From Pseudomonadota bacterium (GTDB lineage Bacteria > Pseudomonadota > Alphaproteobacteria > JACQOE01), in contig JACQOE010000029.1 in the NCBI GenBank assembly GCA_016202695.1, positions 61,332-125,331 of the forward strand: 64,000 nt of DNA. The letters are read 5' to 3'. A program made the translations under genes and the position numbers. The notes below the pieces were generated by a model. That model was given only the letters and a program-made list of their open reading frames with translations. It did not search any database and was not told the DNA's origin. Each line of letters begins with the position of its first letter. Within the stretch, counting starts at the first letter, position 1. Shown here piece after piece: positions 4,781 to 53,954 of this stretch.

Positions 4781-5011
4781 ATGACCGAGAGACGACAAGC
4801 CAGGGCGACGCCGAGCGCCCTCGACGCCCTCAGCAGGCACTTCAGCCGCCTCGCCGAAACCTCGGCCGGCGGCCCGGCGGCGAAGGTATGGAAAGAGGCG
4901 GCCGCGGTCGACTACCGGAGCGCCAACCCCTTCCGCTACGACATGGAGTGGAAGGACGTGAGCGTGCTGGTCAACGCCCTCAAAGGCAACACCGACAAGC
5001 CGAAGGGCTGA
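4781..5011 (+). CDS. Small hypothetical protein (76 aa)
   Basis: Strong AAGGAG RBS 8 nt upstream of ATG; non-biased composition (W, K, D, Y); no recognised family. Confidence 0.45.
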   Translation: MTERRQARATPSALDALSRHFSRLAETSAGGPAAKVWKEAAAVDYRSANPFRYDMEWKDVSVLVNALKGNTDKPKG

Positions 5012-44049: not shown

Positions 44050-44670
44050 TCAGCGCCCGCCGACCGGGGGCTTGCGGGTGAGGTCGGCCAAGAAGGCGCG
44101 GAAGATTCCGCCCACCGCCTGGCCGTAGGCGGCCACCGTCGCCGGGATGCCGGACTCGGCCGCCGGCCGCTCGGCCCGGTAGACCTGGATGACCTCGAGC
44201 CCGCGCTCGCCCCCCTGGCCGACGCCGAGCTCGAGCTCGACCAGGACCGAAGCGCCGGTCGCGCCGACGAGGCGCTCGAGGCGGCGGATCTTGCCGGTCA
44301 GCACATAGGGCGCGCCGGCGCGCTGCTCGGAGGTGATCACGGCGCGGGCAATGTTCGCCTGGCGGAGGAACGCCACCAACTCTTCCTGCAGGAGCCGCGA
44401 GGGGGGCTCGACCCAGTAATGGTAGTCGTAGCGGTCGAGCTCGAAGCTCGCCTCGCGCCGTGAGAAGAGGAGGGCCCGCTCGGCCAGGAGCCCGTCGGCG
44501 AGGAAGCGGCGCACCTCCAGGGCCCCGTCGAAGAGGGGGGCGGAGAGCGCCCGCTCGGGCGGCGCCACCTCCAGCCGGTAGTAGTGATCGCGCGGCACCG
44601 GGGCCGAGCCCCCGCATCCCCCGACCGGGAGCGCCAGGGCCAGGACGACAATGAGGCGCGCCGCCCTCAT
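44050..44670 (-). CDS. ABC-transporter auxiliary lipoprotein (PqiC/YmbA-like, DUF330)
   Basis: Lipobox LALPVGGC; DHYYRLE motif typical of PF03886; 4-nt overlap with MCE gene. Confidence 0.75.
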   Translation of the reverse strand: MRAARLIVVLALALPVGGCGGSAPVPRDHYYRLEVAPPERALSAPLFDGALEVRRFLADGLLAERALLFSRREASFELDRYDYHYWVEPPSRLLQEELVAFLRQANIARAVITSEQRAGAPYVLTGKIRRLERLVGATGASVLVELELGVGQGGERGLEVIQVYRAERPAAESGIPATVAAYGQAVGGIFRAFLADLTRKPPVGGR

Positions 44671-45725
44671 GGCCCTCCTCCTCCCCCCGGTGCCGACTCC
44701 GACGCGCCCTCCAGCTTCGTTCCCTGCAGCAGCACGCTTGGGTTGCTGCGGATCTGGCGACTGAACTCGTAGACGTTGCGGCTGGCCCCTTCCAGGTTGT
44801 TGGCGATGGCGTCGATCCGGCCAGCGAGCGACTCGAGCACATGGCGCATGTCGCCCATCGAGGCGCCCACCGCTCCGGCGTTCTCGTCGGCGATCCGGTT
44901 GAGCGAGGCGATGAGCTTGCCGAGATCATCCAGGCTCGCGCGCATATCCTCGATGAGGTGGCCGAAGCCCTCGGAGGAGGTCTGCATGTTCCCGATCACC
45001 CCCTCGATCCGGGCCATGTTCTCCGCGGAGAGAAGCTCGTTGAGGCGCGCGCTCGATCGGTTGAGGGTGGAGAGGAAGCCCTTGAGGTCGCGGGAAACCG
45101 CGGGCGAGGACTCGGCGAGGTCGGAGACGATGCGCCGGAGGTTGTCGGTGACATCGACCACCGCCGGCTCGACCACGGTCCCGACCCCGTCGACCATCGC
45201 GGTGATGCGCTCGACGAGCGGCTTGATGCGGTTGCGCGAGAGGTCGGTCACCTCCTCGGCGACCGAGGTCATGAGCGCGAGCATGTCGCCGCCCGGCTCG
45301 CTGGCGATCCGCGCCCCGCGCTCGAGGTAGGTGCCGCTCCGGCCGCCGCGGATGTCGATGACCAGGGCGGAGAGGAGCCCCGGGGCCGAGATGCGGGCGA
45401 TACTGTCGGCGGGAACCTGCCAGCCCGAGATCACGCTCGCCTCGACCCGGAAGCGGAGCTTGCCATCCTCGGTGATCGGCTCGATGTGCTCGATCTGGCC
45501 GACCGGGAACCCCTCGTAGAGAACCTGCGAGCCGAACTTGAGGCCGGCGACGTTGTCGAAGACGATTGAGTAGCGGTCGGTGGTGCCGGCCCGGCCGGTC
45601 AATACGGCAAGCACCACCACGAATACCGCCAGCATGACGAGCACGACGCTGCCGACGACGATATAGTTGATGCGGCTGCTGCGCATGGCGCGGCCGAGCG
45701 CCCCCTTCCCGCCCTGCTCCTGCAC
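44667..45725 (-). CDS. MCE-family substrate-binding protein (MlaD-like) with extended C-terminal helical region
   Basis: N-terminal TM + MCE domain (YSIVFDNVAGLKFGSQVLYEGFPVGQIEHIE); GTG start sharing 1 nt with MlaF stop. Confidence 0.85.
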   Translation of the reverse strand: MQEQGGKGALGRAMRSSRINYIVVGSVVLVMLAVFVVVLAVLTGRAGTTDRYSIVFDNVAGLKFGSQVLYEGFPVGQIEHIEPITEDGKLRFRVEASVISGWQVPADSIARISAPGLLSALVIDIRGGRSGTYLERGARIASEPGGDMLALMTSVAEEVTDLSRNRIKPLVERITAMVDGVGTVVEPAVVDVTDNLRRIVSDLAESSPAVSRDLKGFLSTLNRSSARLNELLSAENMARIEGVIGNMQTSSEGFGHLIEDMRASLDDLGKLIASLNRIADENAGAVGASMGDMRHVLESLAGRIDAIANNLEGASRNVYEFSRQIRSNPSVLLQGTKLEGASESAPGGGGGP

Positions 45726-46546
45726 TACCCCTCGCCGGTCAGTCGGCGGAGGTAGGCATCGGCGTCGAGTGTAGCCTCCTCCGAGCGCCGGTTCAGCAGA
45801 TTCTGGATGCGCGGATTGGGACTCGCGCGCACCTCCTCGACGCTGCCCACCATCAGGATCTCGCCCCGGTCGAGCACGATCAGGCGATCGGCGATCTTCA
45901 AGGCGCTCTCGAGCTCGTGGGTGACCACGACGATGGTGATGCCGAGGGCGTCGCGGAGCTTGAGGATCAGGTCGTCGAGCTCGGCCGCCACTATTGGGTC
46001 GAGGCCCGCCGAGGGCTCGTCGCAGAAGAGGAGCTTGGGGTCCATGATGATCGCCCGAGCGAAAGCCGCGCGCTTGGTCATGCCGCCCGAGAGCTCGGAG
46101 GGCATCAGGCCCTCGAAGCCGGCGAGCCCGACCACCTCGAGCTTCATGCGGGCCATGATCCGCATGGTGCGCTCGTCGAGGTCGGTGTGCTCGCGCAGGG
46201 CCAGCATGATGTTCTCGCCGACGGTCATCGAGCTGAAGAGCGCACCGCCCTGGAAGGCCACCCCCATGTGTTTGCGCAGTTCCGCGAGTTCCGGTCCCTT
46301 GAGGCGGCCAAGATCGCGCCCGAGCACCTTGACCGTGCCCGCGTCCGGCGTCTCGAGGGCGATGAGCTGGCGCAGGAGCGTGCTCTTGCCCGAGCCGCTG
46401 CCGCCCATGATGACCATGATCTCGCCGTCGTAGATGTCGAAGCTCACCCCTTTCAGGATGGTGCGCTCGCCGTAGCGCACCACCACGTTCTCGACCTCGA
46501 TCACCCTCGGCCGGCCCTCGGCCACGGCGAGCGGAAGGGCACCCAT
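45725..46546 (-). CDS. ABC transporter ATP-binding protein (MlaF-like)
   Basis: Start at internal Met (MGALPLAVAEG...), Walker A GGSGSGKST, signature LSGGM, Walker B LLFCDEP. Confidence 0.9.
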   Translation of the reverse strand: MGALPLAVAEGRPRVIEVENVVVRYGERTILKGVSFDIYDGEIMVIMGGSGSGKSTLLRQLIALETPDAGTVKVLGRDLGRLKGPELAELRKHMGVAFQGGALFSSMTVGENIMLALREHTDLDERTMRIMARMKLEVVGLAGFEGLMPSELSGGMTKRAAFARAIIMDPKLLFCDEPSAGLDPIVAAELDDLILKLRDALGITIVVVTHELESALKIADRLIVLDRGEILMVGSVEEVRASPNPRIQNLLNRRSEEATLDADAYLRRLTGEG

Positions 46547-47346
46547 CAGCGGCTCACGACGAAGGCGAAGATCATGTCGGTGATGACGATCGCGCTGATC
46601 CCGTGTACGACCGAGCGGGTGGTGGCGCGGCCCACGCCTTCGGCGCCGCCGCGCACCGAGGCCCCGTTGACCGCACCGACCAGGGTGATGAGGACGGCGA
46701 AGATCAGGCTCTTGCCGAGCCCGTGGAAGAGATCGTCGGTGGTGATCGAGTCGATGCAGGCATCGGTGTACGCCGCGAGCGACATACCCAGCTCGATCGC
46801 GACGTAGAGCCCGCCGCCAAGAATGGCGACGAGGTCGGCGTAGAAGGTGAGCACCGGCAGCATCACCACCATGGCGAGGAGCGCCGGCGCGACCAGGAAG
46901 CGCACTGGGTTGACCGCCATCGTGGTGAGAGCGTCGATTTCCTGGTTGATGGTCATGGTCCCGAGCCGGGCGGCGATCGCCGACCCCGAGCGCCCCGTCA
47001 CCAGGATGCCGGTGATGAGGGGCGCGAACTCGCGGGTGACCGAGAGCGCAATGCCCAGAGTCACCCGGTCCTCGGCCCCGAAAATCCTGAGGGTGTAGAT
47101 GCCCTGGATCGCGAGCATGACGCCGATGGTGAGCGAGAGCACGGTGACGATGGGAAGCGCGAGGATGCCGATCTCCATCATCTGCACGAAGACGGAGCCG
47201 ACGCGCACCGGCTGGCGCCGGCGCCTGCCCATCAGCGTCCAATAAAGACTCTCGGCGAAGAGCGCGCCGGCGAAGCCGAGGTCGGCAAGCCCGCGCGCGG
47301 TCGCCCGCCCGACCTGCTCGGCGACATCGGCAAGCGGCCGCAGCAC
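46546..47346 (-). CDS. ABC transporter permease (MlaE-like)
   Basis: MlaE/Ttg2B family pattern (...QMMEIGILALPIV...EIDAL...). Confidence 0.9.
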   Translation of the reverse strand: MLRPLADVAEQVGRATARGLADLGFAGALFAESLYWTLMGRRRRQPVRVGSVFVQMMEIGILALPIVTVLSLTIGVMLAIQGIYTLRIFGAEDRVTLGIALSVTREFAPLITGILVTGRSGSAIAARLGTMTINQEIDALTTMAVNPVRFLVAPALLAMVVMLPVLTFYADLVAILGGGLYVAIELGMSLAAYTDACIDSITTDDLFHGLGKSLIFAVLITLVGAVNGASVRGGAEGVGRATTRSVVHGISAIVITDMIFAFVVSR

Positions 47347-47350
47347 CCGC

Positions 47351-47683
47351 TCAGCCGCCGCTGGCGAGCGCCTCGGCGACGCTCGCGTGAATCGCGAAGA
47401 CCTTGTCGAGGCGCGCCAGGCTCAGGACCCGCATGGCGGCGGGACTCACCGCCGCGAGCGCCAAGCGCCGGCCCCTGAGCCGCGCCGCCTGAAGCGCCTC
47501 GACCAGGCTGGCGATGCCGGAGGAGTCGATGTAGGTGATCCGAGCCATGTCGACGAGCACGTCGCGGCCGCGTCCGACCGCCTTCAGCAGCACCTCTCGC
47601 GCCTCGGGCGAGCTGTCGAGGTCGACGTCGCCCTCGAGCGTAACCACGAGCGTGGCGCCGTCCTCGCGGAGCTGGTGTTTCAT
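47351..47683 (-). CDS. STAS-domain protein (anti-sigma-factor antagonist fold; MlaB position) with phosphorylatable DSSG motif
   Basis: 110 aa; ...ARITYIDSSGIASLVEA... = conserved SpoIIAA/RsbV phospho-Ser loop; 4 nt upstream of MlaE start, overlaps kinase stop. Confidence 0.85.
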   Translation of the reverse strand: MKHQLREDGATLVVTLEGDVDLDSSPEAREVLLKAVGRGRDVLVDMARITYIDSSGIASLVEALQAARLRGRRLALAAVSPAAMRVLSLARLDKVFAIHASVAEALASGG

Positions 47684-48183
47684 GGCCTCTCCCCCTCGGC
47701 CTTTCCCGCCGCCGCCCCGGTCGGTGCGATCCTTTTGACCATGCGCAGCAGGTTGCCACCGCCGGCGGGGCGCGGCAGGAAGGCGACCTCGTCCATCACC
47801 TCTCGGATCAGATGCGTGCCAAGCCCTCCCGGCCTCAGCTCGTCGAGGTCGCGGGGCCTGACCCGGCGCTCGTCCACCGGCGGGGCGAAGTCGCGGAGCT
47901 CCACCGCCACCCGATCGCCCTCCCGTCGCATCGTCAGCACAATCTCGCCGTCGGGCCGCCCCGAATAGGCGTGGCGGATGACGTTCTGACAGGCCTCGTC
48001 GACCGCGAGCACGATGTCATGGACCGCGTCCTCGCTGCAACCGGTCGAGCGCACCGCCGCCGCCACCGCGGCACGGACCATCTTCAGCCGGTCGGGAAGG
48101 GAGCGGAAGCGAAGCTCGAACAGCGTCTCGGCCGCGGCGCCCTCCGCTAGCGAAGGCTCGGCCCGGGTGGGGTTGGCCGCCAC
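47680..48183 (-). CDS. RsbW/SpoIIAB-like serine protein kinase (HATPase_c anti-sigma regulatory factor fold)
   Basis: GTG start (codon 62 of track ORF) after GAGGGG RBS, 12 nt after phosphatase stop; VHDIVLAVDEACQNVIRHAY N-box; G-boxes LRDFAPP...GGLGTHLI. Confidence 0.75.
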   Translation of the reverse strand: MAANPTRAEPSLAEGAAAETLFELRFRSLPDRLKMVRAAVAAAVRSTGCSEDAVHDIVLAVDEACQNVIRHAYSGRPDGEIVLTMRREGDRVAVELRDFAPPVDERRVRPRDLDELRPGGLGTHLIREVMDEVAFLPRPAGGGNLLRMVKRIAPTGAAAGKAEGERP

Positions 48184-48194
48184 GCCCGCGCCCC

Positions 48195-49481
48195 TCAGGC
48201 TCCGTCCACGGCGACCAGGGTGAGGTCGTCGTGGATCTCGCCGCCCGCGGGGCAGAGACGGTCGACGACGATTCTGAGGAGTTCCGGAGAGGTGAAGCGC
48301 CCCGCAAGCTCGGCGATCATCGCCGTCAGCCCCTCTGCCCCCAGGCGCCCGCCGCCCGGCAGCCAAGCCTCGGTGACGCCGTCGCTGAAGACGTAGAGGG
48401 TGCCGCCTCCCAGCTCCAGCTCGCTCACCGGGGGGCCGGTCTCGGGAATCAGGTTGGCGGCGATGCCGAGCGGCGGCACGCTCGCCGGAAGGGCGGTGAA
48501 GCGGCCCCCGCGGGCGCGGAAGAGTGGCGGCTCATGGCCGGCATTGGCCAGGCGCACCCGGCGGCGCGAGGGATCGAGCACGCCGCAGACCATGGTGACG
48601 AACATCCCTCGCGTCACTGTCTCGCAGATCTCGGCGTTGACTCGGGCGATCAGTCGGCCGGGATCGTGGACCTCCTTGCCGAGGCAGCGAAAGACGCTCG
48701 CGGTCTTGGCCATGAGGAGCGCGGCGTTCATGCCCTTGCCGGAGACGTCGCCGAGGGCGAAGCAGACGCTGCCGTCGGCGAGCGGGAAGAAGTCGTAGAA
48801 GTCGCCGGAGACGCACCGCGCCGGCTGGTTGGCGCCGCAAACGGGAAAGGGAACCGGACGGGGAGCGGGAAGAAGGTTCCTCTGGATCTCGGCGGCCAGC
48901 TCCAGCTCGCGGCGCATGCGCTGCTGCTCGACCAGCTCGGCCGACATCTGCGCGTTCATCACCGCCAGCGCCGCGGCCGAGGCGAGCGCCTGAACGAGGT
49001 GGCGGTCGCGCTCGTCGAAAAGCCCGCCGCCGCGCTTGTTGATCAGCTCGATCGCGCCCAGGCAGAGGTCGCCGTGGCCCAAGGGCGCGCACAGGATCGA
49101 GCGGGTGGTGAAGCCGGTGAGCTTGTCGACCGCCTTGCCGAACTGCGGATCCTTCGACACGTCGCGGACCATCTGCGTCTCGAGCTCGCGGATCGAGCGT
49201 CCGACGATGCCGCCGTCGGCGGGGAGCCTGAGCCCGGTGATGTCGACCGGGCCGAAGCAGGCCCGGCAGACCACCGCCGTGCCGTCCTCATCGAGAAGGA
49301 AGAGCGAGGAGGCCTCGGCGCTCACCTGATCGGCGATTCGCTTCAGACCGCGCCGGAGGGTCGCCTCGACGTCGAGGGTCCGGGCGAAGTCGTGGATGAG
49401 GTCGGCGAGGAGGTGCAGACATTCGAACACCTCCTCGGCCGCCGCGGAATGCGCGCTTGCCGCCCGGTTGCTCGCCGACAT
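48195..49481 (-). CDS. GAF-domain PP2C/SpoIIE-type serine phosphatase (RsbU/RsbP-like)
   Basis: N-terminal GAF (…LFLLDEDGTAVVCRACFGP…ILCAPL…); C-terminal PP2C (…SGDFYDFF…GDVSGKG…DDLTLVAV). Confidence 0.85.
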   Translation of the reverse strand: MSASNRAASAHSAAAEEVFECLHLLADLIHDFARTLDVEATLRRGLKRIADQVSAEASSLFLLDEDGTAVVCRACFGPVDITGLRLPADGGIVGRSIRELETQMVRDVSKDPQFGKAVDKLTGFTTRSILCAPLGHGDLCLGAIELINKRGGGLFDERDRHLVQALASAAALAVMNAQMSAELVEQQRMRRELELAAEIQRNLLPAPRPVPFPVCGANQPARCVSGDFYDFFPLADGSVCFALGDVSGKGMNAALLMAKTASVFRCLGKEVHDPGRLIARVNAEICETVTRGMFVTMVCGVLDPSRRRVRLANAGHEPPLFRARGGRFTALPASVPPLGIAANLIPETGPPVSELELGGGTLYVFSDGVTEAWLPGGGRLGAEGLTAMIAELAGRFTSPELLRIVVDRLCPAGGEIHDDLTLVAVDGA

Positions 49482-49566
49482 GACGCCACTATGCCTGCTC
49501 CAGAGGCAGGCGTAAATCGGGCCGGCAGGCCCGTCGACGGTTTCCGGCCGAAAGCGCGGCCGGCCC

Positions 49567-49929
49567 CTACTCGCCTTCGATCTCGCGCTCCTCGGCGACG
49601 TGATCGACCATGTCGGTGAGCACGGCGCGGATGTGCTCGTCGGCGACCAGGTAGAACACCTGGCGCCCCTGGCGCTGCGCCTGCAGCAGCCGCGCCGCGC
49701 GCAGGAGCCGGAGGTGGTGGCTGACCAGCGACGGCGAGAGCTTGAGCTTGCTCGCCATCTCGCCCACCGAGACCTGCTGATGGAGGCAGGTGAGGATGAT
49801 GCCCAGCCGGGTGGGATCGCTCATCAGCCGGAAGACCTCGGCCAGTTCGACGACCTCGTCCTCGCCCAGCCGCGGCCCGGTCACCGTCGGCGAGGCGGGG
49901 TTCTTCAACACGGGAACGCCCTTCGGCAC
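49567..49929 (-). CDS. ArsR/SmtB-family metalloregulatory transcriptional repressor
   Basis: wHTH ...AEVFRLMSDPTRLGIILTCLHQQVSVGEMASKLKLSPSLVSHHLRLLRAARLL... Confidence 0.85.
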   Translation of the reverse strand: MPKGVPVLKNPASPTVTGPRLGEDEVVELAEVFRLMSDPTRLGIILTCLHQQVSVGEMASKLKLSPSLVSHHLRLLRAARLLQAQRQGRQVFYLVADEHIRAVLTDMVDHVAEEREIEGE

Positions 49930-50097
49930 CGCGATAGTCCTTAAAGTCCAATCCTTTGGCCGCGCATCCTAGCCCTCGCCCGGCGCCGCCGCAACCCGGG
50001 ACGCGCATGATTCGGGCCTTGAAATCGAGCCCGATTTGGATAATAAAAAGGATCGAAAAACGGGAAAATCAAAAGTAACCGGAAATACTTCTATTCC

Positions 50098-50160
50098 TGT
50101 TCATCTGTAAATTTGAACATCAATGCAAACATGTATGCTGTTCATCTGTACATATGAACA
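50098..50160. promoter_or_regulatory. Two 22-bp palindromic operators TGTTCA-N10-TGAACA (50098-50119 and 50139-50160) in ArsR/MCO divergent region
   Basis: TGTTCATCTGTAAATTTGAACA and TGTTCATCTGTACATATGAACA, centres 41 bp apart, inside an AT-rich 250-bp intergenic region. Confidence 0.5.
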
Positions 50161-50207
50161 CCCGTTTGAAAGTCGCGCGAGACGAGAGAGAGCGGGAGGG
50201 CGACGGA

Positions 50208-51377
50208 ATGGCTGAAACGGGAACCGGGGCGAGACGGGCGAGATGGGCGCCGCGGCCGGCGGCCACGCGCCCGGCGCTCGAGGTGTCGCGCCGGGGCATG
50301 CTCCTGGGCGGTTTAATCGGCTCCGCCGGGGCGCTCCTTCCGCGGCTTGCCCGGGCCGACGCCGCGGCGGCGGCCACGGCGAGCCCGGGCGCCCCCTACC
50401 CGGCGGCGGGCGCGCATGCCAGCGGCGGAGCGATGGACCACGGTGGCATGATCACGGTCGGCAACGTCGATTCGGCGCGCAACGGCTTCGACCCGCACGA
50501 CCTCCTCGCCGACTTCACCACCGGTGCAATTTCGACCCTGGCCGGCGGCCGGCGGCTTCGCCAATTCGAGGTCGTCGCCGAGGACAAGGAGATCGAGGTC
50601 GCTCCCGGGGTATTCTTCCCGGCCTGGACCTTCAACGGCCGGGTGCCAGGTCCCACCCTCCGGGTGAGCGAGGGAGACCGGGTGCGCATCCGCTTCGTCA
50701 ACCACGGCTCGCATCCCCACTCGATCCACTTCCACGGCATCCACAGCGCGCGCATGGACGGCGTGCCCGGCGCCGGCCTAGTCGAGCCGGGGGGCGAATT
50801 CGTCTACGAGTTCGACGCCTTCCCCTTCGGCTGCCACCTCTACCACTGCCACGCGGTGCCCCTGAAGCGGCACATCCACAAGGGCCTCTACGGCGCCTTC
50901 ATCGTCGACCCCGACCCGGCCCGCCACCCCGAGCACGCCGAGGCCGCCCGCTCGCGGCTCCTCGGCGCGCCCGAGAACGCGCGCTGGCAGGAGCTGGTGA
51001 TGGTGATGAACGCCTTCGACACCAACTTCGACGAGGAGAACGAGGTCTACGCGGTCAACACCGTTGCCCACGCCTACGCGAGGAGGCCGATCCCGCTCGA
51101 CCGCCAAAGGCCGGTCCGCGTCTACCTCGTCAACGTCACCGAGTTCGACCCCATCAACTCGTTCCACCTCCACGCCAACTTCTTCGACTACTACGACCAT
51201 GGCACCACGCTGACGCCGACGCTTAGGACGGTCGACACCGTGATGCAGTGCCAGGCGCAGCGGGGGATTCTCGAGTTCTCGTTCAAGGACCACGAGCCCG
51301 GACTCTACATGTTCCACGCCCACCAGTCGGAATTCGTCGAGCTCGGCTGGATGAGCTTCTTCGAGGTGCGGCCATGA
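50208..51377 (+). CDS. Tat-secreted multicopper-oxidase-type cupredoxin protein
   Basis: Start at Met19 after GGGAGGG RBS; twin-arginine SRRGMLLGG; copper sites HSIHFHGIH, LYHCHAV, HAHQSE. Confidence 0.85.
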   Translation: MAETGTGARRARWAPRPAATRPALEVSRRGMLLGGLIGSAGALLPRLARADAAAAATASPGAPYPAAGAHASGGAMDHGGMITVGNVDSARNGFDPHDLLADFTTGAISTLAGGRRLRQFEVVAEDKEIEVAPGVFFPAWTFNGRVPGPTLRVSEGDRVRIRFVNHGSHPHSIHFHGIHSARMDGVPGAGLVEPGGEFVYEFDAFPFGCHLYHCHAVPLKRHIHKGLYGAFIVDPDPARHPEHAEAARSRLLGAPENARWQELVMVMNAFDTNFDEENEVYAVNTVAHAYARRPIPLDRQRPVRVYLVNVTEFDPINSFHLHANFFDYYDHGTTLTPTLRTVDTVMQCQAQRGILEFSFKDHEPGLYMFHAHQSEFVELGWMSFFEVRP

Positions 51378-52528
51378 TCCGGGCGGCGGGCCTGGCGGCA
51401 CTGCCGCTCGTCGCCCTCGTTGCCGTGATCGGCCTCATGGCGACGCTCAACCCGCTCGCCACTGTCAGCGTCACTGCGCCGCCGATCGAGACGCTCACGG
51501 TCGAGCGCACTGTGCTCGACGAGGGCGGAATCTCTCTCCTCGTGCGCGCCAGCGGAAGCGAGCCGCTGGCGATCGCCCAGGTGCAGGTGGACGGCGCCTT
51601 CTGGCGCTTCGCCCAGGAGCCGCCGGGGCCTCTCGCCCGGCTCGCGACCGCCTGGATTCGTATTCCCTATCCCTGGGTCGGGGGCGAGCGCCACAAGCTG
51701 GTGATGATCAGCCGCACCGGCGCCACATTCGAGCACGCGATCGCGGTCGCCGTCGCCAGCCCGAAGTGGTCGCTGGCGCAGATGCGGGCCTACACCTGGA
51801 TCGGGTTCGTGGTCGGGTTCGTACCGGTCTCGCTCGGCATGCTTTTCTATCCGCTCCTGCAGCGATTGAGCCGGCGCGGCTTCGAGTTCACGCTCGCCCT
51901 CACCGTCGGGCTGCTCCTCTTCCTGTTGATCGACACCCTCGCCGAGGGTCTCGAGCTCGCCGGCGGGGCGGCGCCCGAGTTCCAGGGGGCAGCGCTCGTC
52001 TGGCTCGTCGCCGGGCTCACCTTCCTCACCCTGATGGCAATCGGCCGGCGCGGCGGGCACGCGCCCGAGGGGATCGCGCTCGCGACCTACATCGCCCTCG
52101 GGGTCGGGCTGCACAACCTCGGCGAGGGGCTCGCCGTCGGGGCCGCCTTCGCCGCCGGCGAGGCGGCGCTGGGCGCCTTCCTGGTGGTCGGATTCGTGCT
52201 CCACAACCTCACCGAGGGCGTCGGCATCGTCGCGCCGCTGACTGAGGACCGCCCGCACCTTTACGTCTTCCCCGCGCTCGCCGCGCTTGCCGGCCTGCCG
52301 GCGATCGCCGGCGCCTGGGCGGGGAGCGTGGCCTACGCGCCGCACCTCGCGGCGCTCTTCCTCGGAGTCGGCGCCGGGGCGATCCTTCAGGTCGTCGTCG
52401 AGGTTGGCTCCTACCTCGCGCGCCGCGCCGCGCGCACCGGCGCCTCGTGGCTGTCGGCGAGCACGGTGACCGGCACCTTCGCCGGGGTGGCGGTGATGTA
52501 CGCGACCGCCTTCCTGGTCAAGTTCTAG
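51374..52528 (+). CDS. ZIP-family metal cation transporter with ~150-aa N-terminal periplasmic extension
   Basis: ATGA overlap with MCO stop; two LHNLxEG ZIP signature motifs ([26 protein letters not shown]). Confidence 0.75.
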
Positions 52529-52547: not shown

Positions 52548-53954
52548 ATGAGTGAGCGAGCGGCCCTCGGGATCAAGCTGCCGCCGGCCGCGGCGGCGGG
52601 GACTGCGGCCCCCCTCGGCATCTGGGCGCCGCTCGCCGACTCCGCGGACGCGCGGCCGGCCGTCCCCAGCCTCGCCGAGGTCTACCGGAGCATCCCCGTC
52701 GCCCGTGACGCGCCCTTCTGGCGCCGGGCGATCGCCTTCGCCGGGCCCGGTTACCTAGTTGCCGTCGGCTACATGGACCCCGGCAACTGGGCGACCGACA
52801 TCGCCGGCGGCTCGGCCTTCGGCTATACGCTGCTTTCGGCGGTGCTGCTGGCCAGCCTGCTCGCCATCCTCTTCCAGGCGCTCGCCGCCAAGCTCGGCAT
52901 CGCCACCGGGCTCGATCTCGCCCAGGCCTGCCGGCGCCATTACAGCCGGCCAGTGGCGCATGCCCTCTGGCTCTTGGCCGAGACCGCGATCTGCGCCACC
53001 GACCTCGCCGAGGTGATCGGCACCGCGGTCGCGCTCAACCTCCTGTTCGGCATCCCGATCCTGGCCGGGGTCGTGATCACCGCGCTCGACGTGCTCCTGA
53101 TCCTCGCCCTTCAGGCCCGCGGCTTTCGCCACCTCGAGGCCTTCGTGATGACGCTCCTGGTGATCATCGCCGGCTGCTTCGCCTTCCAGGTGGCGCTCTC
53201 GCGCCCCGATCTCGCCGCCCTGTTCGGCGGCTTCCTGCCCTCGGCCGAGGTGGTGCGCAACCCGGCGATGCTTTACATCGCCATCGGCATCCTCGGCGCC
53301 ACCGTGATGCCCCACAACCTCTACCTCCACTCCGCGATCGTGCAGACGCGGGGCTTCGAGGAGAGCGAGCGCGGCCGGCGCGACGCGATCCGCCTCGCCA
53401 CCGTCGACAGCACCATCGCGCTCAGCCTCGCCCTGGTCATCAACGCCAGCATCCTGATCGTCGCCGCGGCCGCGTTCCATGCCGCCGGCCAGACCGAGGT
53501 GACCGAGATCCACCAGGCCTACGGGATGCTGGCGCCGCTCCTCGGCGTGCCGGCGGCCGCCACCGCCTTTGCCGTGGCCCTGCTCGCCGCCGGACAGAAC
53601 TCGACGGTGACCGGCACGCTCGCCGGCCAGGTGGTGATGGAGGGGTTCCTCGACATCCGCCTGCCGCCCTGGCTCAGACGCCTCGTGACCCGCGCGATTG
53701 CGATCGTCCCGGCGGTGGCGGTGACGGCGCTCTACGGCGAGAGCGGCACGGCCAAGCTCCTGATCCTGAGCCAGGTGGTGCTCAGCCTCCAGCTCCCCTT
53801 CGCGGTGGTGCCGCTGGTGCTGTTCACGAGCGACCGCGCCAAGATGGGCCGATTCGTGAACCGGCGCTGGCTCGCCCTGCTCGCCTTCGCCGCGGCGAGC
53901 GTGATAATTGCGCTCAACGTGAAGCTGGTGGCCGATTTCGCCGGCGCCCTCTGA
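52548..53954 (+). CDS. mntH: NRAMP-family divalent metal (Mn2+/Fe2+) transporter
   Basis: [17 protein letters not shown] signature, 11-12 TM. Confidence 0.9.

What the first reader, a model, noticed from the sequence alone, without database searches (positions are those of the whole stretch)
49567..50207. ArsR-family regulator with twin 22-bp TGTTCA-N10-TGAACA operators controlling divergent transcription units
The only strongly AT-rich intergenic island in the window carries two near-identical perfect-arm palindromes, TGTTCATCTGTAAATTTGAACA and TGTTCATCTGTACATATGAACA. Their centres are 41 bp apart, about four helical turns, so both sit on the same DNA face. They lie between the ArsR gene (leftward, followed by the phosphatase-kinase-STAS-Mla genes) and the MCO-ZIP genes (rightward). 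The second palindrome overlaps the first in-frame ATG of the MCO ORF. That argues the true MCO start is the downstream Met19 behind a GGGAGGG RBS. The sequence is not an alphaproteobacterial LexA box (GTTC-N7-GTTC).
Basis: seen in the sequence. Interest (0 to 1): 0.6.

Follow-up and report, generated by a model that had tools for sequence, protein, structure and literature searches.

The report
Flipped ArsR operators on manganese-uptake operon
Two conserved 22-bp palindromes between an SmtB-like (ArsR-family) metal-sensor gene and a manganese-uptake operon are very probably that sensor's binding sites, which is unusual because sensors of this family normally control metal export, not import.

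Summary
Two perfect-arm TGTTCA-N10-TGAACA sites (50098-50119 and 50139-50160) lie 41 bp apart in the only AT-rich island of the 64-kb window.

Each 22-mer consists of two 12-bp half-sites. A matrix built only from operators of distant ArsR loci ranks these four half-sites as the top four hits in the window. They are arranged back-to-back (everted), not as the usual 12-2-12 inverted repeat.

The closest homologous locus (L087) has the same twin sites and the same 41-bp spacing, but its spacer sequence has diverged.

The regulator has all four SmtB alpha5 metal ligands (DxHx10Hx2E).

The rightward operon encodes a multicopper oxidase, a ZIP-like permease and MntH. In other alphaproteobacteria the oxidase-ZIP pair sits beside MntR or behind an MntR box. 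Here the MntR box is absent and an ArsR gene takes that position. In at least 12 Acetobacterales loci the orthologous ArsR is divergent from Tro/Sit-type or Nramp importers.

Best reading: a local SmtB-type repressor of metal-import genes.

The effector metal, the direction of the metal response and the binding stoichiometry are unknown, and nothing has been tested experimentally. I rate this a new variant of a known kind.

The parts
49567..49929 (-). ArsR/SmtB-family regulator gene. The ORF runs from GTG 49929. The likely true start is GTG 49911, giving MLKN... and 114 aa.
   Evidence: It matches Pfam HTH_5/HTH_20 and NCBIfam 'metalloregulator ArsR/SmtB' above cut-off. The best solved relative is SmtB 1r22 (E 5.6e-17), with D104/H106/H117/E120 aligned to D-E-H...H-V-A-E. 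The start is inferred from homologues L001, L015 and L088, which begin MLK(N/D). The public annotation (85 aa, P0002) cuts conserved helix alpha1.
50098..50119 (.). Operator site 1 (arsR-proximal): TGTTCA-tc-TGTAAA-tt-TGAACA. It consists of two everted 12-bp half-sites, 50098-50109 on the minus strand and 50108-50119 on the plus strand.
   Evidence: Half-site matrix scores are 19.9 and 19.0 bits. The site is conserved in L087 at 914-935.
50120..50138 (.). 19-bp spacer between the two sites. It sets the 41-bp phasing.
   Evidence: The spacer length is conserved in L087, L053, L054 and L077. Between the window and L087 the spacer sequence has largely diverged while the two flanking 22-mers are each 21/22 identical, as read from alignment A1.
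50139..50160 (.). Operator site 2 (MCO-proximal): TGTTCA-tc-TGTACA-ta-TGAACA. It consists of two everted half-sites, 50139-50150 on the minus strand and 50149-50160 on the plus strand, overlapping by 2 bp.
   Evidence: Half-site matrix scores are 19.9 and 24.6 bits, the latter the best in the window. The site is conserved in L087 at 873-894.
49931..50251 (.). AT-rich intergenic island that holds the operators and presumably both divergent promoters.
   Evidence: It is the only region of the window with 150-bp GC below 0.55, with a minimum of 0.35.
50113..50139 (+). Tentative MCO promoter. The -35-like TTGAAC (50113-50118) lies inside site 1. The -10-like TATGCT (50134-50139) abuts site 2. The spacer is 15 nt.
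   Evidence: This is inference only. The same layout, TTGAAC-15 nt-TAGATT, is seen in L087 when read in the MCO direction. The consensus scan found no sigma-70 promoter at its threshold.
50194..50200 (+). Shine-Dalgarno sequence GGGAGGG, 7 nt before ATG 50208.
   Evidence: Read directly from the sequence.
50208..51377 (+). Two-domain multicopper oxidase with a twin-arginine signal. The start is at Met19 of the long ORF.
   Evidence: It matches Pfam Cu-oxidase_3/_2. Homologues are 70-83% identical, and many are named 'manganese oxidase' by JGI. The N-terminal alignment supports the start.
51374..52528 (+). ZIP-like permease with an N-terminal extra-membrane domain. Its start overlaps the MCO stop codon.
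   Evidence: The Pfam Zip match is weak and below cut-off, as is the NCBIfam ZupT match. It is always paired with the MCO in L127-L133.
52548..53954 (+). MntH (Nramp Mn2+ importer).
   Evidence: Pfam Nramp E 3e-131. NCBIfam 'Mn(2+) uptake NRAMP transporter MntH' scores 622.7 bits against a cut-off of 430.
44667..49481 (-). Genes downstream of arsR on the same strand: GAF-SpoIIE phosphatase (48195-49481), HATPase_c_2 kinase (about 47680-48366), STAS antagonist (47351-47683), MlaE (46546-47346), MlaF (about 45725-46540) and MlaD (44667-45725).
   Evidence: The same order follows arsR in L001 and L015, and the GAF-SpoIIE gene also follows it on the short L088 contig. No terminator-like site lies between arsR and SpoIIE. 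Co-transcription is not shown.

Best explanation
**What it is.** The gene at 49567-49911/49929 encodes an SmtB/CzrA-type (alpha5-site) ArsR-family metalloregulator. It recognises the same 12-bp half-site as its relatives, consensus (A/T)ACAnATGAACA.

**How the operators are built.** Four such half-sites form two 22-bp palindromes. In each palindrome the halves are everted: the TGAACA ends point outward and the flanks overlap in a central TGTACA. The two palindromes are phased 41 bp apart, about four helical turns.

**What it most likely does (inferred).** Several dimers probably occupy this 63-bp region. They would block the promoter and early transcribed region of the multicopper oxidase-ZIP-mntH operon, whose start codon is 47 bp downstream, and probably the divergent arsR promoter as well. 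In this lineage the ArsR protein holds the regulatory position that MntR holds next to the same oxidase-ZIP module in other alphaproteobacteria. It therefore acts as the local repressor of manganese-type import genes.

**What is shown and what is not.**
- Shown by sequence comparison: the half-site identity, the conservation and phasing of the sites, the intact alpha5 ligand set, and the repeated pairing of this ArsR clade with importers.
- Inferred: that the protein binds these sites, that binding represses, and that arsR is autoregulated.
- Unknown: the effector and the direction of its effect. Two scenarios are open:
  - (a) The family-typical logic, in which a competing metal (Zn, Co, Ni or Cd) releases the repressor and raises Mn import. 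I put this at roughly 0.4.
  - (b) A reversed logic, in which Mn(II) or Fe(II) acts as co-repressor as it does for MntR. I put this at roughly 0.25.
For: **The sites are real and not chance.**

**The half-sites are the family's half-sites.**
- A matrix from 58 half-sites of 29 CDF/ATPase-linked ArsR loci ranks the four window half-sites 1st to 4th in 64 kb on both strands.
- The recognition helix SPSLVSHHLRLLRAAR is near-identical between those proteins and the window protein.
- 12-2-12 repeats with a TGAACA-nn-TGTTCA core are the accepted operators of alpha5/alpha3N SmtB/ArsR sensors (PMC8790569).

**The sites travel with the regulator.**
- 47 of about 83 homologous loci carry the canonical operator upstream of arsR.
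- Hexamer-cluster positions: 78 in 34 kb upstream of arsR against 3 in 850 kb elsewhere.

**Phylogenetic footprint.**
- L087 (77% identical ArsR) has TGTTCAtaTGTACAaaTGAACA, then 19 bp, then TGTTCAaaTGTACAgaTGAACA. The spacer sequence has diverged and the neighbouring gene is MCO-like.
- The 41-bp phasing of two 22-bp clusters recurs in L053, L054 and L077.

**Sensor site.** D-x-H-x10-H-x2-E aligns to SmtB D104/H106/H117/E120 and is conserved in all homologues.

**Targets are importers.**
- MntH passes the NCBIfam cut-off.
- The MCO-ZIP pair is divergent from an MntR gene in L127, L128 and L131, the last scored as an NCBIfam MntR equivalog.
- The pair is preceded by an MntR box (TGTAGCCGAGGCTACA) in L127-L133. 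The consensus AACATAGCnnnnGCTATGTT is from PMC1698941.
- The window intergenic region has no MntR box.
- The orthologous ArsR is divergent from Tro/Sit-type ABC importers or Nramp in L001, L015, L088, L028, L035, L037, L044, L053, L054, L077 and L085.

**Geometry.** Site 2 ends 47 bp before the MCO start codon.
Against: - There is no experimental evidence of any kind.
- The everted arrangement places the two TGAACA hexamers 16 bp apart, on opposite faces. A single dimer therefore cannot read a 22-mer the way it reads a 12-2-12 repeat. The window has no canonical TGAACA-nn-TGTTCA site even at 2 mismatches.
- No consensus promoter was found. The arsR start is 187 bp from site 1, so autoregulation is uncertain.
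- All characterised alpha5 ArsR sensors release DNA on binding metal and control efflux or sequestration (PMC11672702). An importer target therefore makes no homeostatic sense for the sensed metal unless the logic is altered or the signal is a competing metal.
- An mntH that is not next to arsR in another Acetobacterales genome (L134/L135) has no such sites. No regulon beyond the adjacent genes has been seen.
- The ABC-type binding protein in L001 is closest to T. pallidum TroA, with the third ligand a His. Mn versus Zn is therefore open for those loci.
Confidence: 0.75

Rival explanations
1. The palindromes are bound by a different manganese or iron regulator (MntR, Mur/Fur or Irr) or by LexA. 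The neighbouring ArsR gene would then be incidental.
For: The operon is of the Mn-uptake type. Elsewhere it is controlled by MntR. Alphaproteobacteria commonly use Mur or MntR for these genes (PMC1698941).
Against: - The sequence does not fit the MntR box (AACATAGCnnnnGCTATGTT) or the Irr ICE (TTTAGAA-N3-TTCTAAA), both from PMC1698941. From my own knowledge it also does not fit the alphaproteobacterial LexA box GTTC-N7-GTTC.
- There is no MntR box in the intergenic region.
- All four half-sites match the ArsR half-site matrix over all 12 positions.
- The motif follows arsR genes even where no importer is adjacent, as in L003 and L033 and in the CDF-linked loci.
Confidence: 0.07
2. The sites are ArsR operators but serve only autoregulation of the leftward arsR-phosphatase-kinase-STAS-Mla unit. 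The MCO-ZIP-mntH operon would be controlled elsewhere.
For: - In CDF-linked relatives the operator lies directly upstream of arsR and the regulator is autoregulated together with its downstream gene.
- The arsR-SpoIIE-kinase-STAS-Mla order is conserved in L001 and L015, and the GAF-SpoIIE gene also follows arsR in L088.
- No terminator follows arsR.
Against: - The sites lie 47 bp from the MCO start but 187 bp from the arsR start.
- In the sit-type loci the clusters also hug the importer gene and lie 130-290 bp from arsR.
- The divergent partner changes (MCO-ZIP-MntH, Tro/Sit, Nramp) but is always an importer. This argues that the importer is the selected target.
Confidence: 0.1
3. The palindromes are structural or repetitive DNA or RNA with no regulator attached: REP-like elements, hairpin terminators or a mobile-element end.
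For: The arms are perfect inverted repeats and the region is AT-rich.
Against: - The predicted hairpins are weak, at -2.7 and -3.9 kcal/mol, and are matched by 11-14 of 200 shuffles.
- There is no terminator-like site and no Rfam family match.
- There are only two copies in 64 kb.
- A scan of 241 million metagenome records for TGTTCANNTGTACANNTGAACA gave 37 hits. Nearly all are unrelated low-GC DNA, and the only twin-site locus is the ArsR homologue L087/L094.
- One high-GC hit precedes an unrelated ribbon-helix-helix gene.
Confidence: 0.02

Closest known systems
SmtB (Synechococcus), CzrA (S. aureus) and AzuR/ZiaR: alpha5-site ArsR/SmtB zinc sensors with 12-2-12 operators
   Same: - It has the winged-helix HTH_5 fold family, and SmtB is its best solved relative.
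- It has the complete DxHx10Hx2E ligand set.
- It has the same TGAACA-type half-site with an AT-rich outer flank.
- One or two operator units lie near the target promoter, and the regulator and target genes are divergent, as for ziaR-ziaA.
   Different: - The half-sites are everted and overlapping instead of inverted with a 2-bp gap.
- Two units are held at a fixed 41-bp phase.
- The adjacent target is an import operon (MCO-ZIP-MntH), not a CDF, P-type ATPase or metallothionein.
- There is no alpha3 CxC site (alignment).
MntR (DtxR family) control of mntH, sitABCD and the MCO-ZIP module
   Same: The gene position (divergent from the oxidase-ZIP pair) and the class of target genes are the same. 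The arrangement fits non-orthologous displacement of the regulator.
   Different: - The protein fold is unrelated and the DNA motif is unrelated.
- MntR binds DNA when loaded with Mn. No ArsR-family protein is known to do so.
PsaR of Streptococcus pneumoniae (zinc-provoked derepression of manganese uptake). This comparison is from my own knowledge and was not checked here.
   Same: It gives a physiological precedent for scenario (a): excess of a competing metal raises expression of a manganese importer.
   Different: PsaR belongs to the DtxR family and is primarily a Mn co-repressor. The analogy is about logic only.
TroABCD-TroR of Treponema pallidum
   Same: The ABC importers next to the orthologous ArsR (L001 and others) are closest to TroA (E 5e-69) and have two permeases. 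In L001 one permease carries a DtxR/TroR-type C-terminal domain.
   Different: A complete TroR/DtxR regulator is absent from those operons, and an ArsR gene sits upstream instead. The window itself has no Tro-type transporter.

Membership tests
ArsR/SmtB metalloregulators, alpha5 class | Winged helix-turn-helix of the HTH_5 type | tested here: met
   Pfam HTH_5 E 2e-9 and HTH_20, both above cut-off. NCBIfam NF033788 scores 78.4 bits against a cut-off of 55.
ArsR/SmtB metalloregulators, alpha5 class | Interfacial alpha5 metal site DxHx10Hx2(H/E) | tested here: met
   In LVADEHIRAVLTDMVDHVAEE, D, H, H and E align to SmtB D104, H106, H117 and E120. The motif definition is from PMC11672702. It is conserved across 83 homologues.
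ArsR/SmtB metalloregulators, alpha5 class | Operator is a 12-2-12 inverted repeat with a TGAACA-nn-TGTTCA core | tested here: not met
   The canonical core has no match in the window at up to 2 mismatches. The same 12-bp half-sites are present but everted and overlapping. Relatives in 47 loci do carry the canonical form.
ArsR/SmtB metalloregulators, alpha5 class | Controls metal efflux or sequestration genes | tested here: not met
   The adjacent operon encodes MCO, a ZIP-like permease and MntH, which are import-type genes. The more distant clade does sit next to CDF or P-type ATPase genes.
ArsR/SmtB metalloregulators, alpha5 class | Metal binding lowers DNA affinity (derepression) | not testable with these tools
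   This needs DNA-binding assays with and without metals.
MntR (DtxR-family) manganese regulon | MntR box AACATAGCnnnnGCTATGTT upstream of the target | tested here: not met
   No match to the core in 49930-50207. The box is present upstream of the homologous MCO-ZIP pairs in L127-L133. The consensus is from PMC1698941.
Alphaproteobacterial LexA (SOS) box | Direct repeat GTTC-N7-GTTC (consensus from my own knowledge) | tested here: not met
   The sites read GTTC-N12-GAAC. No DNA-repair gene is adjacent.
REP-like or dispersed palindromic repeats | Many copies in varied, mostly non-promoter contexts | tested here: not met
   There are two copies in 64 kb. In the metagenome scan the only related locus is the ArsR homologue. 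The complete source genome was not available.

The most novel reading that the evidence does not exclude
This Acetobacterales clade of SmtB-like proteins has taken over the MntR role. It would sense Mn(II), or Fe(II), at the alpha5 site and bind its operators when metal-loaded. That would make it the first ArsR-family co-repressor of metal uptake. The everted, 41-bp-phased half-site architecture would reflect a binding mode (a dimer of dimers or a short filament) different from that of classical 12-2-12 operators.
Probability: 0.25. Interest if true: 0.85.

Novelty: new variant of a known kind. Interest (0 to 1): 0.6.

Why it matters
ArsR/SmtB sensors are the textbook case of metal-released repressors of efflux and detoxification genes. 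A 2024 review lists Cu, Zn, Ni, Co, Cd and Pb as the transition and heavy metals they sense and describes only allosteric inhibition of DNA binding.

A conserved clade wired to importers, sitting where MntR sits in related genomes, means one of two things. Either the family has been recruited to couple toxic-metal stress to manganese import, or the allosteric sign or the metal specificity of the alpha5 site has changed. Both can be tested with one purified protein and a 63-bp DNA fragment.

The everted half-site arrangement also tests how rigid the family's DNA-reading geometry really is.

As a by-product, the oxidase-ZIP pair emerges as a widespread MntR- or ArsR-controlled module. I could find no described function for it.

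Tried and rejected
- **Promoters and terminators.** Consensus scans of the intergenic region and of the arsR-SpoIIE gap found nothing. My -35/-10 proposal therefore rests only on conservation with L087.
- **RNA elements.** An Rfam search of 49400-50700 gave nothing relevant. Single-strand folding gave only weak hairpins.
- **Canonical operator.** A search for the 12-2-12 core in the window gave no match.
- **Everted 22-mer elsewhere.** The metagenome scan gave 37 hits. All are unrelated to ArsR except the locus already found. One high-GC hit belongs to a ribbon-helix-helix gene.
- **Regulon acting in trans.** An Acetobacterales mntH not linked to arsR (L134/L135) has no hexamer cluster upstream. 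No evidence of a wider regulon was obtained.
- **Literature.** I found no paper linking ArsR/SmtB to manganese uptake, mntH or sitABCD, and none on an MntR-controlled oxidase-ZIP module.
- **Plasmids.** The plasmid collection has no close ArsR homologue.
- **Rejected ideas.**
  - The 41-bp unit is not a recent tandem duplication. Outside the 22-mers the two units share no similarity.
  - I could not assign the effector metal from clade-specific residues. The one consistent difference, VDH against VAH before the second His, is shared with SmtB itself.
- **Not done.**
  - Structure prediction was not run, because a monomer model would not address stoichiometry or the metal.
Full report
**The observation**

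TGTTCATCTGTAAATTTGAACA is at 50098-50119 and TGTTCATCTGTACATATGAACA is at 50139-50160. A 19-bp spacer separates them, so their centres are 41 bp apart.

Allowing two mismatches, they are the only matches to TGTTCA-N10-TGAACA in 64 kb. The shuffled expectation is 0.22, and none of 100 shuffles gave two matches.

They lie in the only stretch of the window whose GC content falls below 55% in 150-bp windows. That stretch is 49931-50251, with a minimum of 35% against 70.6% overall.

The gene on the left is an ArsR/HTH_5 protein. It is followed by a GAF-SpoIIE phosphatase, an HATPase_c_2 kinase, a STAS antagonist and MlaE/F/D. On the right are a two-domain multicopper oxidase (MCO), a ZIP-like permease and an Nramp that passes the NCBIfam cut-off for MntH.

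The window is identical to a contig of a MAG labelled 'Proteobacteria bacterium'. Its relatives are Acetobacterales.

**The regulator**

The best solved relative is SmtB (E 5.6e-17). In that alignment the four alpha5 ligands D104, H106, H117 and E120 match D, H, H and E of LVADEHIRAVLTDMVDHVAEE. This is the DxHx10Hx2(H/E) motif that defines the canonical zinc-type site of the family (PMC11672702). There is no alpha3 CxC site.

Homologues start MLK(N/D). The gene therefore probably starts at GTG 49911 (114 aa), not at the first GTG of the ORF (49929). The public 85-aa annotation would remove conserved helix alpha1.

**Homologous loci**

One scan of species-representative genomes plus exact-protein look-ups gave about 90 loci.

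In 47 of about 83 distinct loci, a canonical operator lies within 420 bp upstream of the conserved core of arsR. Its consensus is aACATA-TGAACA-nn-TGTTCA-TATGTt. This is the 12-2-12 repeat accepted for alpha5 and alpha3N SmtB/ArsR sensors (PMC8790569).

Positions where three TG(T/A)(T/A)CA-like hexamers fall in an 8-bp register number 78 in the 34 kb upstream of arsR genes. There are 3 in the other 850 kb of fetched DNA, an enrichment of about 640-fold. The motif therefore travels with this regulator family.

**What the window's palindromes are**

I built a 12-bp half-site matrix from 58 half-sites of 29 loci of the distant, CDF- or ATPase-linked clade. None came from the window's clade. Its consensus is AACATATGAACA.

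Scanned over the whole window on both strands, its four best hits are the four halves of the two palindromes. They score 24.6, 19.9, 19.9 and 19.0 bits. Two overlapping registers inside site 2 come next, and the best unrelated hit scores 11.9.

The recognition helix SPSLVSHHLRLLRAAR is near-identical in both clades. So the palindromes are made of genuine family half-sites, flank included.

Their arrangement is not the canonical one. The TGAACA ends point outward and the flanks overlap by 2 bp in a central TGTACA. The canonical core TGAACA-nn-TGTTCA is absent from the window even at two mismatches.

The two strong hexamers of a 22-mer are 16 bp apart, so one dimer cannot read both in the classical way. 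I could not resolve the binding mode. Two dimers back-to-back per 22-mer, or a short oligomer along the 8-bp hexamer register, are both possible.

**Conservation of the architecture**

The closest homologue (77% identity, L087, a 1.9-kb metagenome contig) has TGTTCAtaTGTACAaaTGAACA, then 19 bp, then TGTTCAaaTGTACAgaTGAACA. The neighbouring divergent gene begins like the window's MCO.

In the pairwise alignment each 22-mer is 21/22 identical, while the spacer sequence has largely diverged.

Two 22-bp three-hexamer clusters spaced exactly 41 bp start to start also occur in L053, L054 and L077. There the hexamer orientations differ: TGAACg-nn-TGTTCA-nn-TGTAnn followed by TGTTCA-nn-TGTTCA-nn-TGTTCC.

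A scan of 241 million metagenome records for TGTTCANNTGTACANNTGAACA found 37 loci. Apart from the L087 contig they are unrelated DNA, mostly of low GC. One high-GC hit precedes a ribbon-helix-helix gene. The element is not a dispersed repeat.

Single-strand folding gives only weak hairpins, and there is no Rfam match.

**The targets**

The homologues split into two groups.

- One group spans beta-, gamma- and some alphaproteobacteria. It has the canonical operator directly upstream of arsR. A cation-diffusion-facilitator gene is adjacent in 22 loci, or a P-type ATPase in a few. This is the classical czrA-czrB-like arrangement.
- The other group includes the window. Within it, the Acetobacterales proteins are divergent from importers:
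  - Tro/Sit-type ABC systems in L001, L015, L088, L028, L035, L037, L044, L053, L054 and L077;
  - an Nramp in L085;
  - MCO-ZIP-MntH in the window.

In those loci the hexamer clusters sit next to the importer gene and lie 130-290 bp from arsR.

The MCO-ZIP pair is a conserved two-gene module, 70-83% identical across many taxa. In a Caulobacteraceae MAG, an unnamed alphaproteobacterium and Azospirillum it is divergent from an MntR gene. The Azospirillum protein passes the NCBIfam MntR equivalog cut-off.

In all five fetched loci the pair is preceded by TGTAGCCGAGGCTACA-like palindromes. These fit the MntR box AACATAGCnnnnGCTATGTT (PMC1698941). The window's intergenic region has no such box.

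The simplest reading is regulator displacement. The same manganese-type module is controlled by MntR in some lineages and by this ArsR in the window's lineage.

**Mechanism and its open part**

Site 2 ends 47 bp before the MCO start codon, and site 1 lies 187 bp from the arsR start. A possible promoter reads TTGAAC (in site 1), then 15 nt, then TATGCT abutting site 2. It has a counterpart in L087 (TTGAAC, 15 nt, TAGATT). The consensus scan reports no promoter, so this remains a guess.

I conclude with confidence about 0.75 that the ArsR protein binds these sites and represses the import operon. Autoregulation of arsR and its downstream genes is plausible but unshown.

The unresolved point is the signal. 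Every characterised member of the family loses DNA affinity on binding its effector and controls efflux or detoxification. The metals listed for the family do not include Mn or Fe. I found no paper connecting ArsR/SmtB with manganese uptake.

- **Scenario (a), about 0.4.** A competing metal such as Zn, Co, Ni or Cd releases the repressor so that manganese import rises. The ligand set is unchanged from that of the CDF-linked relatives, which makes this the parsimonious reading.
- **Scenario (b), about 0.25.** The clade has become a Mn(II)/Fe(II) co-repressor. Its occupation of the MntR position favours this.

**Evidence that limits the claim**

- An mntH unlinked to arsR in another Acetobacterales genome has no hexamer cluster, so no wider regulon is seen.
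- The ABC-type binding protein of L001 is closest to T. pallidum TroA, with a His as third ligand. Zn versus Mn is therefore open for those loci.

**The MCO start**

Homologues begin about ten residues before the twin-arginine motif. The ATG in site 2 is part of the half-site ATGAACA. In L087 the same ATG meets a stop after four codons. Met19 has GGGAGGG 7 nt upstream.

The public annotation (359 aa, starting MLLGG) would cut the twin-arginine motif.

**Verdict**

It is a new variant of a known kind: an SmtB-type regulator with family-typical half-sites in an atypical everted, phased layout, attached to import genes rather than export genes. All of this rests on sequence comparison. A binding assay with metals would settle both open questions.

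Noticed in passing
L001 about 4941-4957; also in L015 and L088, just upstream of arsR: A palindrome, TTAGAA-TGG-TTCTAA, lies about 45 bp before the arsR start in three relatives. It fits the Irr iron-control element TTTAGAA-N3-TTCTAAA (PMC1698941). It would put arsR, and through it the importer, under iron control. It is absent from the window.
   Followed up: partly
L001 1576-2979 (minus strand); the same gene is in L002: One of the two permeases of the Tro/Sit-type importer carries a C-terminal DtxR/MntR-type metal-binding domain (Pfam Fe_dep_repr_C; partial NCBIfam MntR/DtxR hits at residues 365-461). It may be a remnant or a fused sensor domain.
   Followed up: partly
window 50208-52528; L127, L128, L129, L131, L133: The multicopper oxidase and ZIP-like permease form a conserved, translationally coupled pair, 70-83% identical from Caulobacteraceae to Halomonas. 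An MntR box precedes the pair. JGI names many of the oxidases 'manganese oxidase'. I found no paper describing the module.
   Followed up: partly
window 49567-49929 and 50154-51377: The public start calls for both genes look too short. ArsR at 85 aa loses conserved helix alpha1. The MCO at 359 aa loses its twin-arginine motif.
   Followed up: yes
window 44667-49481; L001 5401-10207; L015; L088: A GAF-SpoIIE phosphatase, anti-sigma-type kinase, STAS antagonist and MlaEFD transporter follow arsR in the same order in the window, L001 and L015. The GAF-SpoIIE gene also follows arsR on the short L088 contig. In Acetobacteraceae proper the gene after arsR is instead the cox (aa3 oxidase) cluster. 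Whether either set is co-regulated is unknown.
   Followed up: no
L134/L135 3266-3500: An Acetobacterales mntH that lies downstream of a P-type ATPase and a CDF gene, with no arsR nearby, has no TGTTCA-type cluster upstream. It has only a partial MntR-box-like TGTAGCCttgGGTTCA.
   Followed up: yes
L066 about 2771-2800; L078 about 504: Extra operator-like sites lie kilobases away from arsR in two loci. The L066 site reads TGAACAggTGTTCA. They hint at second targets.
   Followed up: no
L053, L054 (sitA 5' ends) and window 50154: The half-site (A/G)TGAACA supplies an in-frame start-like codon, reading M-N-(T/R)-R, in three loci. In L053 and L054 I saw no other ATG, GTG or TTG before the signal peptide, so the operator may overlap the real start codon there. 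This reading is by eye.
   Followed up: partly
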